From an uncultured bacterium (GTDB lineage: Bacteria; Patescibacteriota; Minisyncoccia; Phycocordibacterales; UBA9973), in contig CALAYS010000157.1 of NCBI GenBank assembly GCA_937895515.1, forward strand, positions 12,462-76,461: a stretch of DNA of 64,000 nucleotides, given 5' to 3'. The notes beneath the pieces are model-generated. The model searched no databases. It had not been told where the DNA came from and saw only the letters and a program-made list of their open reading frames with translations. Below, piece by piece: positions 9,921 to 22,227 of the stretch. The position numbers and the translations under genes were made by a program. How positions within the stretch are numbered: the stretch's first letter is position 1; each line of letters opens with the position of its first letter.

Positions 9921-11591
9921 TTAATAAACTTCCACTTTTAAGTATTTCATAAAAGGTAGCAAATCGTTTGCTATCTTTTTTGATAATTCATAATCTTTTT
10001 TATTAATTGACCAGTTGTTAGTAGGGAACGAAGCGTGGATTTTTATTTGACCCAAGATACTTTTTTCTATAGAGATTGTTTCTGGAATTGAATGTTGACC
10101 AAGGATTTTTATAATATCTTTTTGAATTTTTTCCACTTTACTGGCGTATGGGTCAAGGTTAAAAATAACATGCCGGCTGTATGGCGGATAATGTAAATCT
10201 TTCCTATTAATTAATTCATTTTTTTGCCAATCAGTATCACTCTGGCTTAAAAATTCTTTTTCATTGTTTTGCATTACGCTAACTATCATTCCATGGGTGC
10301 AATTATTAGCATAATGGATTATGTCTCGAGCTCTTTCAACTGATTCAAAAAATTCGTTATATAGCAAAGCCCCTAAAGACGGAACAATACAAATATCACA
10401 TTCGTTTATTTCATTAATTGTGTTTAATGGCCCAATGATTATTCCACCATTTGTTTGCCAATTTTTGATATCTTTTTGTTTTATATATGTAGAAAAATCA
10501 TAAATATTATCTTTATATTTATTGGGTATAATATTTTGTACATTTTCTATAATCCTCTCTATCCCATAACCCAGTGGGGTTAAATTCCAACTATCACAAT
10601 TAGTACATTTAGCCAGTGCGGTATAGCCTGTTTTACAATTTAAACAAATAAAAATATAATTTCCTGAAATACCATAATTTTTTGCATAATTTCTATTATT
10701 TTTTACAAGCTTTAGTGCATTATTACAATTTGGGCAACTATGAATTTGGCTGCAGTCACCACAAATTGTTTTAGGTGAAAAGTTTTTTGTTGGAGTAATT
10801 ATTAAAATTCTTTTTCCGCCAGCGGGCGGATTTAGATTTTTTAAAATTACTTCTTGAACTGGAAGTGATATTGGAAATTGTTTTTCATTATGTGGTTCAT
10901 CTTCTCTAGAGATTATTCTTAAATCAGTATTTGTGTTTAGTATAGGTTTTTTAATTTGATCAATGTTCCATTCATTGTATCTTAGTCTTGTATTATATGA
11001 TTGAAATGAAATTTTAATTTTTAAAATGTTACATAAAATTACAATAAAAGCCACTGGGTCAAAACCCAAATAAATGTTTCCATAATTAGACAAATTCTCC
11101 GGATCATCAACTATTATATGGGTTATTTTACTTTTTTCATCTTTAAAAAATTCTAAAAATGTTGCAAATGTTGCAACATTTGCAGTATCACTTTGTTTTT
11201 CTAATTTTTTATTTCCAGAAGTTATAATTAATGTTTTAGATTCTTCATTAATTTTAGTTTTTTTAAATTTTATTTCTTTCAAACATGCTCGAATTATGAT
11301 GTCTCTGGAAACCAAAGAATAATAACAAAAATCATTAATTGCGTTTACTACTTCTTTTTTTAAAATAATATTATTTGTTGATTTTTCTATTTTTAATAAT
11401 TTCCAAGGTAATGATTTGATATAACTTTTTTCATCTTGAACATTTTTAACTGAAACTACTAAACTTTTTTCAATACTTTTTTTAATTGGTGCGTCAATAA
11501 TTGTACCAATAGATAATTGATCGCTAGAAATATAAGACAATTCTCCGTCAGGGATTTTTCTTTTAGTTGGGATGACAGTAATTACGTACAT
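9921..11591 (-). CDS. priA: PriA-like primosomal protein N' homolog without a recognisable P-loop
   Basis: Cys-rich region CGDC..CPNC...CLNC...CTNC followed by GYGIERI, as in the PriA CRR. No GxxxxGK[ST]; the DEEH position reads VDDPE. Confidence 0.65.
   Translation of the reverse strand: MYVITVIPTKRKIPDGELSYISSDQLSIGTIIDAPIKKSIEKSLVVSVKNVQDEKSYIKSLPWKLLKIEKSTNNIILKKEVVNAINDFCYYSLVSRDIIIRACLKEIKFKKTKINEESKTLIITSGNKKLEKQSDTANVATFATFLEFFKDEKSKITHIIVDDPENLSNYGNIYLGFDPVAFIVILCNILKIKISFQSYNTRLRYNEWNIDQIKKPILNTNTDLRIISREDEPHNEKQFPISLPVQEVILKNLNPPAGGKRILIITPTKNFSPKTICGDCSQIHSCPNCNNALKLVKNNRNYAKNYGISGNYIFICLNCKTGYTALAKCTNCDSWNLTPLGYGIERIIENVQNIIPNKYKDNIYDFSTYIKQKDIKNWQTNGGIIIGPLNTINEINECDICIVPSLGALLYNEFFESVERARDIIHYANNCTHGMIVSVMQNNEKEFLSQSDTDWQKNELINRKDLHYPPYSRHVIFNLDPYASKVEKIQKDIIKILGQHSIPETISIEKSILGQIKIHASFPTNNWSINKKDYELSKKIANDLLPFMKYLKVEVY
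10815..10830. repeat. GC-rich palindromic element TCCGCCAGCGGGCGGA inside priA
   Basis: With flanks, 20/21 nt match the inverted copy at 13097..13117. Encodes NPPAGGK on the priA coding strand. Confidence 0.85.
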
Positions 11592-11597
11592 AGATGT

Positions 11598-11606
11598 ATT
11601 TTAGCA
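11598..11606 (-). promoter_or_regulatory. extended -10 TGcTAAAAT, 6 nt before the priA ATG 11591
   Basis: Motif and spacing. Confidence 0.6.
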
Positions 11607-11640
11607 TAAAAAGCACCCACTATAATACTCTTAATTTTTA

Positions 11641-11649
11641 TGCTATAGT
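11641..11649 (+). promoter_or_regulatory. extended -10 TGcTATAGT, 8 nt before the mreB ATG 11658
   Basis: Motif and spacing; divergent from the priA promoter. Confidence 0.6.
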
Positions 11650-11657
11650 AGCCCCAT

Positions 11658-12674
11658 ATGTCACTTTTTCGGAAAAAACTTGGAATTGATTTAGGTACAG
11701 CCAATACTCTGGTGTATGTTCCTGGTAAAGGAATAGTACTTTGTGAACCCAGTGTTGTTGCTGTTAGTGAACAAGATAATAAGATTTTGGCTGTGGGTAA
11801 CGATGCTAAAGATATGATTGGTAAGACCCCAGATTCTATTATAGCTTACCGGCCTATGCGTGATGGAGTAATTGCTGATTATCGGGTTACCGAAGCAATG
11901 CTACGCTACTATATAACTAAAGCTTTAGGTAAATGGTCATTTGTCCGTCCTGATGTATTAATCTCTGTTCCAGCTGGAATTACTTCAACCGAAAGACGCG
12001 CTGTTATAGAAGCTGCGCTTAAAGCCGGGGCAAAAAATGCTTATGTTGCCAAAGAACCAATTTTGGCGGCTATTGGCGCTGGAATTCCTATTTATGAATC
12101 TCACGGTCATATGGTAGTGGATATTGGTGGTGGTACTACTGATGTTGCGGTAATATCTTTGGGCGGAATTGTGGCTTCAACATCGGTTAAATGTGCGGGT
12201 AATAAACTAGATACAGCCATAACTGATTTTATTAAAAAATCTTTTAATTTAGCAATTGGAGATAGAACAGCCGAGCAAATAAAAATAAGAGTTGCTTCTG
12301 CTGTACCAGTAGATGATGAAATCACAATGCTTATCAAAGGCCGAGACTATATAACAGGGCTTCCAAGAACTGCCCAAGTAACAACTAATGAAATTTGCCG
12401 AGCAATTGATAAAGAATTACGAATGATGGTTAAAGCCATTAAAGATGTACTCCAAGAAACTCCTCCGGAACTTGCTGCTGATATAATTGATCATGGTATT
12501 ATTATGACTGGTGGGACTTCACAGTTGCGATCACTTCCAGAATTGGTTTATCGCCGTACTGGTGTCAAAGCTCGTCTAGCTGATGACCCAATGTTGTGTG
12601 TTGCCAAAGGCACCGGTGAAGCATTGGAGCATCTTGATATGTACAAGCGCGCATTACTTTTAAAACAAAAATAA
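11658..12674 (+). CDS. mreB: rod shape-determining protein MreB
   Basis: GIDLGTANTLVY, DIGGGTTDVAV and MTGGTSQL actin-fold motifs. Confidence 0.96.
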   Translation: MSLFRKKLGIDLGTANTLVYVPGKGIVLCEPSVVAVSEQDNKILAVGNDAKDMIGKTPDSIIAYRPMRDGVIADYRVTEAMLRYYITKALGKWSFVRPDVLISVPAGITSTERRAVIEAALKAGAKNAYVAKEPILAAIGAGIPIYESHGHMVVDIGGGTTDVAVISLGGIVASTSVKCAGNKLDTAITDFIKKSFNLAIGDRTAEQIKIRVASAVPVDDEITMLIKGRDYITGLPRTAQVTTNEICRAIDKELRMMVKAIKDVLQETPPELAADIIDHGIIMTGGTSQLRSLPELVYRRTGVKARLADDPMLCVAKGTGEALEHLDMYKRALLLKQK

Positions 12675-12688
12675 ATTAGTAATATATT

Positions 12689-13372
12689 ATGGAAAATTTA
12701 AATCCATTTTCTGTTATTCTAAAAAAAGAAAATCTTTCCCATGCTTATTTGTTTTTGGGAAATTTTGAGCAAAATAAAATTAATTTTGAAGAATCTTTAT
12801 TGTCTTTGGGTGTAAAAATAAATACGCCAGGGAATTTTATTTTTATTGGTAATACTTTTGGTAAAGATGATGCTGATCAATTAAATAGTTGGTATACAAA
12901 AGGCGCTACAGCGGACAGTCCTTATACAATAGCTGTAATTTCAGCCGGAACATTAAAAATAGAAGCCCAGCAATTGTTGTTAAAAGTTTTTGAAGAAGCT
13001 CGCCGCCCTTATATATTTTTCTTATTTGCTCCATATGGGACAGAGATATTGCCGACTATAAAATCTCGCTGTAGTTTAGTTGAGCTTGATTCTGTGAATC
13101 CGCCAGCTGGCGGAAAAGAAATCCAAAAATTTATAAAAATGACAGCAGGGGATCGTGTTAAATATGTAGCCGAACAAATAAAAAATAAAGAAAGTTCAGA
13201 TATTAGAATTTATACCGAAGAATTAGTTCGAGGTTTAATAAATCATTTTCATAGTGATAGTTTTAAAAATAATAAACAAATTTTAGAAAATTTATTAAAA
13301 GCCCAAAACTCATTAGCCTCTGGTCACATCGCCCCTAAGTTTATTTTAGATTATGTGGTTACTGTGATATAA
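12689..13372 (+). CDS. holB: DNA polymerase III delta' subunit-like protein
   Basis: SHAYLFLG and LLKVFEEARRPYIFFLF....ILPTIKSRC match clamp-loader delta' motifs; no intact Walker A. Confidence 0.7.
   Translation: MENLNPFSVILKKENLSHAYLFLGNFEQNKINFEESLLSLGVKINTPGNFIFIGNTFGKDDADQLNSWYTKGATADSPYTIAVISAGTLKIEAQQLLLKVFEEARRPYIFFLFAPYGTEILPTIKSRCSLVELDSVNPPAGGKEIQKFIKMTAGDRVKYVAEQIKNKESSDIRIYTEELVRGLINHFHSDSFKNNKQILENLLKAQNSLASGHIAPKFILDYVVTVI
13099..13114. repeat. GC-rich perfect palindrome TCCGCCAGCTGGCGGA inside holB
   Basis: Encodes NPPAGGK in holB. Confidence 0.85.
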
Positions 13373-22204: not shown

Positions 22205-22227
22205 ACTTGGAGGTCCGACCTCCAAGT
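22205..22227. other. 11-bp-stem GC-rich palindrome between the methyltransferase gene and mnmA
   Basis: ACTTGGAGGTC-c-GACCTCCAAGT. No flanking T-run, so not an obvious terminator. Confidence 0.6.

What the first reader, a model, noticed from the sequence alone, without database searches (positions are those of the whole stretch)
10811..13118. Same GC-rich palindromic 21-mer inserted in-frame in priA and holB, forming inverted repeats around mreB
Seen in sequence: the priA coding strand has AATCCGCCCGCTGGCGGAAAA and the holB coding strand has AATCCGCCAGCTGGCGGAAAA, 20/21 identical. The core is the 16-bp palindrome TCCGCC(A/C)GCTGGCGGA. Both are translated as N-P-P-A-G-G-K within otherwise unrelated, AT-rich genes. 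In priA the site falls at the loop just before the Cys-rich region. Because the genes are divergent, the two copies are chromosomal inverted repeats about 2.27 kb apart. They bracket the priA 5' half, both promoters, mreB and the holB 5' part.

Inference, three options:
- A miniature palindromic element that tolerates in-frame insertion, as in Rickettsia palindromic elements.
- A protein or recombinase recognition site. Inversion between the copies would produce in-frame priA/holB chimeras because the reading frame through the element is the same.
- An uptake or restriction-related motif (it contains CAGCTG).
Basis: partly seen in the sequence, partly recalled or inferred. Interest (0 to 1): 0.6.

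Follow-up and report, generated by a model that had tools for sequence, protein, structure and literature searches.

The report
Tiny mobile hairpin inside two genes
The two identical GC-rich 16-base palindromes in priA and holB are separate insertions of a very small selfish DNA hairpin that spreads through the genes of tiny uncultured bacteria, adds a harmless Pro-Pro-Ala-Gly-Gly loop where it lands, and has its fixed home beside small nuclease genes lodged at tRNA genes.

Summary
TCCGCC-RRYY-GGCGGA sits at window 10815-10830 (priA, minus strand) and 13099-13114 (holB). Both copies read N-P-P-A-G-G-K, and shuffles give none.

The pairing around mreB is coincidence.
- The priA copy is a +15 nt insertion absent from the sister species.
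- The holB copy is older; the sister keeps it in decayed form.
- Gene order is the same in all ten genus members.

The 16-mer is a dispersed repeat.
- There are 7 copies in this assembly. It occurs in 51 of 201 genomes of the order and in other low-GC phyla.
- 23 of 26 genic copies are read as PPxGG. The HolB model puts its copy in a loop.
- It has struck the same helicase loop twice and RNase P RNA at four positions.

Its one fixed home is a cassette: tRNA 5' fragment, hairpin, small GIY-YIG nuclease gene, intact tRNA. This holds for 66 of 76 junction-first loci and 7 of 8 protein-first genes. This genome lacks that cassette, so how solo copies are made is inferred, not shown. RAYT-like transposases co-occur with the hairpin (odds ratio 6) but never flank it.

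Earlier notes of this scan reported the same family on other DNA.

The parts
10815..10830 (-). Solo copy of the 16-bp hairpin repeat ('A'; TCCGCCCGCTGGCGGA on the coding strand) inside the priA-like gene. It encodes P255-G259 of N254-PPAGG-K260.
   Evidence: It is a net +15 nt relative to the sister species G001 (81% aa identity) and is absent from the other eight genus members. It lies just before the strand that aligns with E. coli PriA 382-394.
13099..13114 (+). Solo copy of the same hairpin (perfect palindrome TCCGCCAGCTGGCGGA) inside holB. It encodes P138-G142 of N137-PPAGG-K143.
   Evidence: Sister species G001 has a same-length decayed copy, AAT TCG TCA GCT AGT GGA, with four transitions from G/C to A/T. 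In the AlphaFold2 model (mean pLDDT 85) the residues lie in a coil between strand 129-132 and helix 142-150, with pLDDT below 50 at 136-140. As single-stranded DNA the perfect copy folds at -6.6 kcal/mol and the decayed G001 copy at 0.
9921..11591 (-). Host gene 1: a divergent PriA-like protein of 556 aa with four CxxC pairs.
   Evidence: ORF. Weak match to solved PriA structures. No Pfam hit. Orthologues found in 39 of 41 relatives.
12689..13372 (+). Host gene 2: holB (DNA polymerase III delta-prime-like, 227 aa).
   Evidence: ORF. Pfam DNA_pol3_delta2, E=2e-14. Orthologues in 41 of 41 relatives.

Best explanation
The two 16-mers are independent solo copies of a very small non-autonomous palindromic repeat, called 'A' here (TCCGCC-RRYY-GGCGGA). 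A colonises AT-rich, gene-dense genomes of Patescibacteria and some other low-GC bacteria.

Shown:
- Each copy is an insertion of 12-15 net bases with no target-site duplication.
- Copies are gained and lost between sister species, and old copies decay towards A/T.
- Genic copies survive almost only in the frame read Pro-Pro-Ala-Gly-Gly. Where position was examined (HolB model, PriA alignment, helicase loop) they lie in loops or linkers.
- Copies also occur in RNase P RNA and at the tips of terminator-like hairpins between genes.
- The only place where A is a constant part of a larger unit is a cassette of about 330 bp: a tRNA 5' fragment with A in place of its D-loop, then a small GIY-YIG (YhbQ/Slx1-like) nuclease ORF, then an intact tRNA, usually tRNA-Asn.

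Inferred:
- A is the terminal hairpin of this tRNA-lodged nuclease cassette.
- Solo copies arise when a break elsewhere in the chromosome is repaired by copying only the hairpin end of a cassette, a kind of abortive homing.
- Selection then removes every copy that is not in a tolerated frame and loop.

The two copies bracketing mreB have no joint function. They entered at different times.
For: Insertion and turnover:
- priA has +15 nt relative to G001.
- The UvrD/PD-(D/E)XK helicase copy on C170 is present in G000 but missing in G001 and in 24 other orthologues. Only G019 also has one.
- Four of the six G001 copies (MiaA, RecD-like, CCA enzyme, LeuRS) have clean empty sites in G000, differing by +12, +12, +15 and +12 nt. 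The Fpg site is unclear and no ValRS orthologue was found.
- holB, murF and RNase P P3 copies are shared with G001, where they are decayed.

Recurrence:
- G019 has an independent insertion in the same helicase loop.
- RNase P RNA carries copies at nt 25 (G000/G001), 199 (G019), 225 (G004) and about 146 (G038).

Frame:
- 23 of 26 genic copies in G000, G001 and G019 are read PPxGG (binomial p=9e-9).
- Across phyla the frame counts are 32, 10 and 9.

Spread:
- A occurs in 51 of 201 genomes of the order, and the reversed control pattern in none.
- The 18-mer gives at least 120 stretches in the species-representative genomes, against about 17 that I estimate by chance. Most are Patescibacteria, with some Bacteroidota, Bdellovibrionales and others.

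Cassette:
- A pairs flank GIY-YIG ORFs in G069 and G050.
- The 30-mer junction TAGCTC+A+GGTAGAGC occurs in 87 metagenome stretches. Of the 76 fetched loci with room downstream, 66 have the nuclease ORF 36-68 nt downstream, mostly followed by tRNA-Asn.
- Starting from the protein instead, 7 of 8 close homologues have an A copy 17-55 nt upstream (p about 1e-21), and all 6 genomes that hold them carry A.

Target resemblance: in the cassette A replaces AAT before GG in the D-loop (CTC AAT GG TAGAGC). The MiaA, DnaE and helicase empty sites also have AAT-GG at the insertion point, although only MiaA fits cleanly.
Against: - This genome and its sister G001 both gained A copies after they split, yet neither holds an A-type cassette. 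G000 has four small GIY-YIG genes, three of them beside tRNA genes, but those inspected carry other inserts in place of A.
- G019, with 20 copies, has no small GIY-YIG gene at all. G015 has 11 such genes and no A.
- 45 of 51 A-bearing genomes lack the close nuclease subfamily.
- No step of hairpin-only copying has been observed.
- The junctions are read from species 80-90% identical, so the exact insertion boundaries (12 versus 15 nt, 1-4 target bases replaced) are uncertain.
- A-bearing genomes are even more enriched for RAYT-like HUH transposases (odds ratio 6) than for small GIY-YIG genes (odds ratio 3.4).
- Three old copies are perfect in G000 but carry 11 changes in G001, although the two branches are equally long (71 versus 65 derived residues). 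Simple neutral decay does not explain this.
Confidence: 0.55

Rival explanations
1. A is a minimal REP-like hairpin moved in trans, as single-stranded DNA, by the RAYT-like HUH (Y1) transposases that are common in these genomes. The GIY-YIG cassettes are only one more place where it landed and became fixed.
For: - Y1_Tnp (PF01797) matches occur in 44 of 51 A-bearing genomes against 77 of 150 without A (odds ratio 6.0, p=6e-6). A control methylase family gives an odds ratio of 0.96.
- In the 41 closest relatives, all 13 A-bearing genomes are Y1-positive and none of the 18 Y1-negative genomes has A.
- Nearly all RAYT-like genes inspected in these genomes carry their own hairpin near the start, inside the ORF in frame and/or at the stop. 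G000's copy is at C11:7568-8200.
- That hairpin family ('B') is also dispersed in G000, and two copies lie within long open frames. HUH-type hairpins therefore do land in coding DNA here.
- The absence of a target duplication fits HUH transposition.
Against: - A is not the flanking hairpin of any of 13 RAYT-like genes inspected. The one near case is an A copy 267 nt upstream in G069.
- Only one RAYT-like gene lies near an A copy among the loci held at the time, which included the stretches of up to 8 kb around the 18-mer hits.
- The RAYT hairpins are longer (15-35 nt), and their tightest folds mostly have 3-nt loops; A is an even, fully symmetric palindrome with a 4-nt loop.
- G126 has 10 copies and no Y1 match at 100% completeness.
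- Kinship among genomes inflates the statistics.
Confidence: 0.22
2. A is a host cis-element, the binding site of a dimeric DNA-binding protein or an RNA hairpin with a cellular role. It is kept by selection and recruited repeatedly into genes.
For: - The 12 stem bases are identical across phyla, while the loop varies only by transitions.
- Three older copies in G000 (holB, murF, RNase P P3) are perfect although the sister's copies decayed and the branch lengths are equal (p about 0.001).
- Copies sit at the same helicase loop in two genera.
Against: - 150 of 201 genomes of the order have none.
- Copy sites are not conserved between sister species.
- Copies decay.
- Canonical parS sites exist elsewhere in the assembly (C202:40166-40927), so A is not the centromere site.
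- There is no positional clustering.
Confidence: 0.08
3. The two copies are a functional inverted-repeat pair, a recombination or inversion switch around mreB.
For: The geometry alone: inverted 16-mers 2284 bp apart with the same reading frame through each.
Against: - The copies have different ages.
- Synteny is identical in ten genus members, with or without the copies.
- The proximity is within chance (about 0.05).
- 16 bp is very short for homologous inversion (my own knowledge).
Confidence: 0.02
4. A is a DNA-uptake or restriction-related motif (option 3), or NPPAGGK is a protein-level motif.
For: The motif contains CAGCTG. Many host genes act on DNA: priA, holB, holA, dnaE, uvrD, recD, fpg. 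Only those were checked against Pfam; the rest are named from their sequences.
Against: - Density is far below that of uptake signals.
- Loop variants abolish CAGCTG.
- There is no link to the methylase family.
- Identical rare codons (CCG CCA GCT GGC GGA) in unrelated proteins of a 33% GC genome rule out selection at the protein level.
- Orthologues lack the peptide.
Confidence: 0.02

Closest known systems
Intragenic REPs and REP/RAYT 'REPtrons' (Di Nocera et al. 2013, PMC3733652, read; Nunvar 2010 and Bertels & Rainey 2011 from my own knowledge)
   Same: Both are short GC-rich palindromic repeats, dispersed, variable between close relatives and without a target duplication. [quoted passage not shown] That mirrors priA, holB, dnaE, uvrD and the twice-hit helicase loop here. 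Their CGTC-type REPs also lack a dedicated transposase.
   Different: A is only 16 bp and has no GTAG or CGTC tag or any conserved flank. In G000, G001 and G019 it is mostly intragenic rather than extragenic. It never flanks a RAYT gene. Its fixed partner is a GIY-YIG nuclease cassette at tRNA genes.
Rickettsia palindromic elements (RPE; Ogata et al. 2000, my own knowledge; cited in PMC3733652)
   Same: Both are selfish palindromic repeats inserted in frame in functional, often essential genes of a reduced AT-rich genome, adding a tolerated peptide segment.
   Different: RPEs are about 100-150 bp, add 30-50 residues and are confined to Rickettsia. A adds 4-5 residues, spans several phyla and is tied to a nuclease cassette.
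Mitochondrial GC clusters of yeasts and palindromic elements of fungal mitochondria (my own knowledge; review PMC8811140 listed, not read)
   Same: Both are GC-rich palindromes spreading in a very AT-rich, compact genome, sometimes in frame in protein genes, alongside GIY-YIG or LAGLIDADG homing endonuclease genes.
   Different: Those elements are organellar, 30-50 bp long and of different sequence. No tRNA-fragment cassette is known for them.
Free-standing GIY-YIG homing endonuclease genes (I-TevI-like; my own knowledge)
   Same: Both involve a small GIY-YIG nuclease ORF inserted at a conserved housekeeping target. Here the target is a tRNA gene and the ORF's stop codon lies in the tRNA's 5' end. 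The target is rebuilt next to the insert.
   Different: The ORF is only about 80-90 aa, a bare YhbQ/Slx1-like domain without a DNA-binding extension. It is accompanied by a fixed hairpin that also occurs alone by the dozen, which classical homing genes do not show.

Membership tests
REP / REPIN-RAYT system | An imperfect palindrome of 20-40 nt carrying a conserved GTAG or CGTC tag at one end. | tested here: not met
   The core is 16 nt. The flanks of copies in G000, G001 and G019 share nothing beyond a frequent AAT or GAT codon upstream.
REP / REPIN-RAYT system | The cognate RAYT gene is flanked by the repeat (a REPtron). | tested here: not met
   None of 13 RAYT-like genes is flanked by A. 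The same test is met for the separate hairpin family B at G000:C11:7533-8224.
REP / REPIN-RAYT system | The repeat occurs together with a Y1 HUH transposase in the genome. | tested here: inconclusive
   The odds ratio is 6.0 against 0.96 for a control family. There are exceptions (G126) and kinship was not corrected.
REP / REPIN-RAYT system | The repeat is predominantly extragenic. | tested here: not met
   4 of 7 copies in G000, 6 of 6 in G001 and at least 13 of 20 in G019 lie in long ORFs.
Rickettsia palindromic elements | In-frame insertion of a palindromic repeat in functional ORFs. | tested here: met
Rickettsia palindromic elements | An element length of about 100-150 bp and sequence families RPE-1 to RPE-8 of Rickettsia. 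| tested here: not met
   A is 16 bp and its hosts are Patescibacteria and other phyla. No sequence comparison with RPE consensus sequences was run.
MITE | Terminal inverted repeats plus a target-site duplication. | tested here: not met
   No duplication appears in seven filled/empty pairs. Instead 1-4 target bases are replaced.
parS / centromere-like site | A 16-bp palindrome in a few copies clustered near the origin and conserved in position. | tested here: not met
   Canonical parS sites cluster on C202. A sites differ between sister species.
DNA uptake sequence | Hundreds to thousands of copies per genome, roughly one per kb. | tested here: not met
   There are 7 copies in 1.87 Mb, and 0 copies in 150 of 201 genomes of the order.
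GIY-YIG/tRNA cassette with A hairpin | A lies within about 60 nt upstream of a small GIY-YIG ORF that abuts an intact tRNA gene. | tested here: not met
   This was tested for the two window copies and all other G000 copies. No A lies within 1.5 kb of any small GIY-YIG gene of G000. The window copies are solo copies, not cassette members. The feature holds elsewhere: 66 of 76 junction-first loci and 7 of 8 protein-first genes.

The most novel reading that the evidence does not exclude
A is the business end of a previously undescribed minimal homing element. The element is a cassette of about 330 bp made of a tRNA-mimicking attachment fragment, a 16-bp hairpin and a bare GIY-YIG nuclease. It integrates at tRNA D-loops. 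Through abortive, hairpin-only copying at off-target breaks, it writes five-residue Pro-Pro-Ala-Gly-Gly loops into essential proteins across Patescibacteria and other low-GC bacteria. That would make A the smallest mobile DNA known to colonise protein-coding sequence.
Probability: 0.3. Interest if true: 0.8.

Novelty: new variant of a known kind. Interest (0 to 1): 0.6.

Why it matters
- It shows how far selfish DNA can shrink. A 16-base hairpin with no stop codon in any frame can live inside essential replication genes of bacteria with 0.6-0.9 Mb genomes.
- It supplies natural presence/absence markers for these uncultured lineages.
- It is a ready-made catalogue of protein loops that tolerate a five-residue insertion.
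- The link to a tiny GIY-YIG/tRNA cassette, next to a parallel RAYT-plus-hairpin system in the same genomes, makes the long-open question of how REP-like repeats without a transposase are propagated testable. One nuclease and one hairpin can be put together in a tube.
- For annotation, identical GC-rich 16-mers in unrelated genes of these genomes should not be read as recombination sites, regulatory sites or assembly errors.

Tried and rejected
- RNase P RNA as the source of the hairpin: rejected, because copies sit at four different positions in different genomes and most RNase P RNAs lack one.
- parS identity: rejected.
- Phage carriage: the 16-mer gave 55 viral stretches against 24 for a reversed control. 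Most hits in high-GC contigs are ordinary IRQLAD-type coding sequence and only about ten are in low-GC contigs, so the evidence is weak.
- GIY-YIG adjacency inside this genome and its relatives: negative at first. The link appeared only when closely spaced A pairs in other genomes were opened.
- TnpB (PF07282) as a control family: too rare to use.
- tRNA-like context of G000's two intergenic copies: none found.
- Unequal branch lengths as the reason for perfect G000 copies against decayed G001 copies: rejected, 71 versus 65 derived residues.
- Literature: no paper in the library holds the 14-mer, and nothing was found on in-frame palindromes in Patescibacteria.
- HolB against solved structures by sequence: no hit, so a model was used instead.


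Full report
**Observation.** The window holds TCCGCCAGCGGGCGGA at 10815-10830, which reads TCCGCCCGCTGGCGGA on the priA coding strand. It holds the perfect palindrome TCCGCCAGCTGGCGGA at 13099-13114 in holB. With their flanks the two are 20/21 identical and both are read N-P-P-A-G-G-K. No shuffle of the window gives a match. The hosts are a divergent PriA-like gene (9921-11591, minus strand) and holB (12689-13372), with mreB between them. The window is contig C157 of a 1.87 Mb, 244-contig, 33.5% GC assembly. Its relatives have 0.4-1.3 Mb genomes. One member of the same order is named Candidatus Wolfebacteria, so this is a Parcubacteria-type candidate-phyla-radiation bacterium. With 100 tRNA genes the assembly is probably a composite bin.

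**Insertion or ancestral motif.**
- PriA orthologues of the nine other genus members lack the peptide. The sister G001 (81% identity) reads AAT ATA TCT CAA AGA where G000 reads AAT CTA AAT CCG CCC GCT GGC GGA AAA AGA, a net +15 nt.
- In HolB, G001 has a same-length decayed copy (AAT TCG TCA GCT AGT GGA) that differs by four G/C-to-A/T transitions. More distant orthologues have a shorter, unrelated linker.
- The holB copy therefore predates the G000/G001 split and the priA copy follows it.
- An AlphaFold2 model of HolB (mean pLDDT 85) puts residues 137-143 in a low-confidence coil between the last strand of domain I and the next helix.
- In PriA the codons precede the strand that aligns with E. 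coli QVILFLNRRG, before the Cys-rich region.

**A dispersed family.** G000 has 7 copies with at most one mismatch:
- priA and holB, in the window;
- a Mur ligase gene (probably murF) and a UvrD/PD-(D/E)XK helicase-nuclease;
- RNase P RNA;
- two intergenic sites.

G001 has six copies, all in long ORFs. G019 has twenty. Hosts I recognised from their sequences include MiaA, RecD-like helicase, ValRS, LeuRS, ArgRS, CCA enzyme, Fpg, HolA, DnaE, UvrD, MurE, L22, AtpB, GlmM and aminopeptidase N; these were not checked against Pfam.

- Of 26 copies in ORFs of at least 120 aa, 23 are read PPxGG (p=9e-9).
- The palindrome has no stop codon in any frame. The other frames read SASWR or RQLA(D/E).
- In a sample of 201 genomes of the order (at most two per family), 51 carry TCCGCC-RRYY-GGCGGA, with up to 27 copies per 0.5 Mb. 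The reversed control is absent everywhere.
- The 18-mer AATCCGCCAGCTGGCGGA occurs in at least 120 stretches of the species-representative genomes. Most are Patescibacteria. Others are Bacteroidota (including the isolates Pedobacter psychrophilus and Aquiflexum lacus), Bdellovibrionales, Elusimicrobia and gammaproteobacterial MAGs.
- No paper in the library contains the 14-mer.

**Turnover.**
- Four G001 copies have clean empty sites in G000: MiaA +12, RecD +12, CCA +15 and LeuRS +12 nt.
- The G000 helicase copy is empty in G001 and in 24 other orthologues. G019 carries an independent copy in the same loop while its nearer relative G018 is empty.
- murF is filled in both G000 and G001 but empty in three further genus members, and the G001 copy is decayed.
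- RNase P RNA carries copies at four different positions in different genomes, so it is a recipient and not a source.
- No pair shows a target duplication. One to four target bases appear to be replaced, and the insertion follows a T, often AAT or GAT.
- Some intergenic copies sit at the tip of longer terminator-like palindromes.

**Rejected readings.**
- Canonical parS sites cluster on another contig.
- The copy density and the many genomes without any copy exclude an uptake signal.
- Presence is unrelated to an N6/N4 methylase family (odds ratio 0.96).
- The priA-mreB-holB arrangement is identical in ten genus members.
- Two of seven copies within 2.3 kb is within chance.

**Who moves it: RAYT.**
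- Y1_Tnp matches occur in 44 of 51 A-bearing genomes against 77 of 150 others (odds ratio 6.0, p=6e-6). Most are 200-280 aa proteins that one source names 'REP element-mobilizing transposase RayT'.
- Nearly all of these genes carry their own hairpin near the start, once or twice in frame inside the ORF, and/or at the stop.
- G000's gene (C11:7568-8200) has four copies of ACTTGGAGGT-CGG-ACCTCCAAGT. That family ('B') has about ten copies in G000. Two lie within long open frames, and one is intergenic in the window at 22206-22226.
- Hairpins tied to HUH enzymes therefore do enter coding DNA here. A, however, never flanks a RAYT-like gene (0 of 13), and G126 has ten A copies and no Y1 match.

**Who moves it: GIY-YIG.**
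In G000 I found four such genes, three beside tRNA genes, but no A near them.
- G019, with 20 A copies, has none of these genes. G015 has eleven and no A.
- Opening closely spaced A pairs in other genomes changed the picture. In G069 and G050 the pairs flank an ORF of about 85 aa with the GIY-YIG motif. A replaces the D-loop of a duplicated tRNA 5' fragment (TAGCTC[A]GGTAGAGC, against TAGCTCAATGGTAGAGC in the real tRNA-Asn). The ORF's stop codon lies in the 5' end of the intact tRNA that follows.
- The 30-mer junction occurs in 87 metagenome stretches. Of 80 fetched, 66 have the nuclease ORF 36-68 nt downstream, mostly followed by tRNA-Asn. Four end too soon. Ten have the junction followed directly by a tRNA.
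- Starting from the protein instead, eight close homologues in the order sample lie in six genomes, all of which carry A. Seven of the eight have an A copy 17-55 nt upstream (p about 1e-21).
- Looser GIY-YIG relatives are also enriched in A-bearing genomes (odds ratio 3.4).
- G000's own cassettes have the same architecture but other, longer GC-rich inserts at the D-loop.

**Reading.**
- Shown: A is a selfish mini-repeat with recent gains, decay and recurrent hits, filtered to a benign frame and, where checked, to loops. It has one conserved home, the 5' junction of a tRNA-lodged GIY-YIG cassette.
- Inferred: solo copies come from hairpin-only copying of a cassette end into breaks elsewhere. 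The AAT-GG at the MiaA, DnaE and helicase empty sites resembles the D-loop target.
- The main weakness is that most A-rich genomes, including this one and its sister, have no A-type cassette. A RAYT acting in trans or an unknown enzyme remains a serious alternative.
- One observation fits neither model simply. The three copies shared by G000 and G001 are perfect in G000 and carry 11 changes in G001, although the branches are equally long (p about 0.001).

**Comparison with known systems.**
- Intragenic REPs, often in replication and repair genes and once at the same recB site in two species, are described by Di Nocera et al. 2013 (PMC3733652).
- In-frame RPEs are known from Rickettsia.
- A shares the lifestyle of both but fails their defining features of length, tag, RAYT flanking and extragenic bias. 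It adds a link to a GIY-YIG/tRNA cassette that I did not find in the literature searched.
- I class it as a new variant of a known kind.
- Earlier notes of this scan reported the same family in at least eight other windows. What is new here: the dating of the two copies, the twice-hit helicase loop, the RAYT association with its control family, RAYT-cognate hairpins lying in frame inside the RAYT genes themselves, and two independent tests of the GIY-YIG cassette.

Noticed in passing
window 22206-22226; also G000:C11:7533-8224, C11:43712, C12:39280, C38:20606, C117:427, C157:12294: A second hairpin family ('B', CTTGGAGGT-NNN-ACCTCCAAG) is present. Four copies decorate a RAYT-like HUH transposase gene on C11: one before the start, two in frame inside (read DSLGGRTSKL and DSLGGPTSKL) and one after the stop. 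About six more copies are dispersed, two of them within long open frames. The window copy lies between a 284-aa ORF and an mnmA-like gene.
   Followed up: partly
loci L396-L407 (G069, G151, G173, G183, G189) and proteins P0001-P0060: Nearly all RAYT-like genes of this order carry their own gene-specific hairpin at the start, inside the ORF and/or at the stop. In the protein family the two insertion hot spots encode matching peptides, for example LGNPTSKL twice in one protein. Some 204-aa members have neither insert.
   Followed up: partly
G000:C13:22780-22998 (+tRNA-Asn), C52:31451-31666 (+tRNA-Lys), C65:9720-9923 (+tRNA-Trp), C12:60429-60653: There are four small GIY-YIG genes, three of them abutting tRNA genes. 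At tRNA-Asn and tRNA-Lys a duplicated tRNA 5' fragment precedes the ORF and carries a longer GC-rich insert (29-41 nt) in its D-loop, where the A hairpin sits in other genomes.
   Followed up: partly
G000:C202:40166-40927: Six parS-like sites (TGTTTCACGTGAAACA with up to 2 mismatches) lie within 760 bp.
   Followed up: no
G000 whole assembly; C142:580-954: The assembly is 1.87 Mb with 100 tRNA genes, while relatives have 0.4-1.3 Mb, so it is probably a composite bin. Contig C142 carries an IS200-type TnpA with four in-frame TGA codons and may come from an organism that reads TGA as sense.
   Followed up: no
G000:C70:6324-6339: A variant A copy (TCCGCCAGCTAGCGGA) lies upstream of a class I aminoacyl-tRNA synthetase gene, in a leader that contains GGTGGTACCACGCG, a T-box-like motif. 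Rfam at the gathering threshold found nothing there.
   Followed up: partly
holB, murF (G000:C12:46977) and RNase P P3 (G000:C13:58496) versus G001: The three A copies shared with the sister species are perfect in G000 but carry 4, 5 and 2 changes in G001. Derived amino-acid changes are balanced (71 versus 65). This asymmetry is unexplained; it could reflect renewal, conversion or selection in one lineage.
   Followed up: partly
G069:C13:24378-24513 (L411): Three A copies spaced exactly 60 nt apart form a tandem repeat. All are read KKKKNPPAGGKKKTAPARA in the N-terminal low-complexity part of a 446-aa sigma-factor-like ORF.
   Followed up: no
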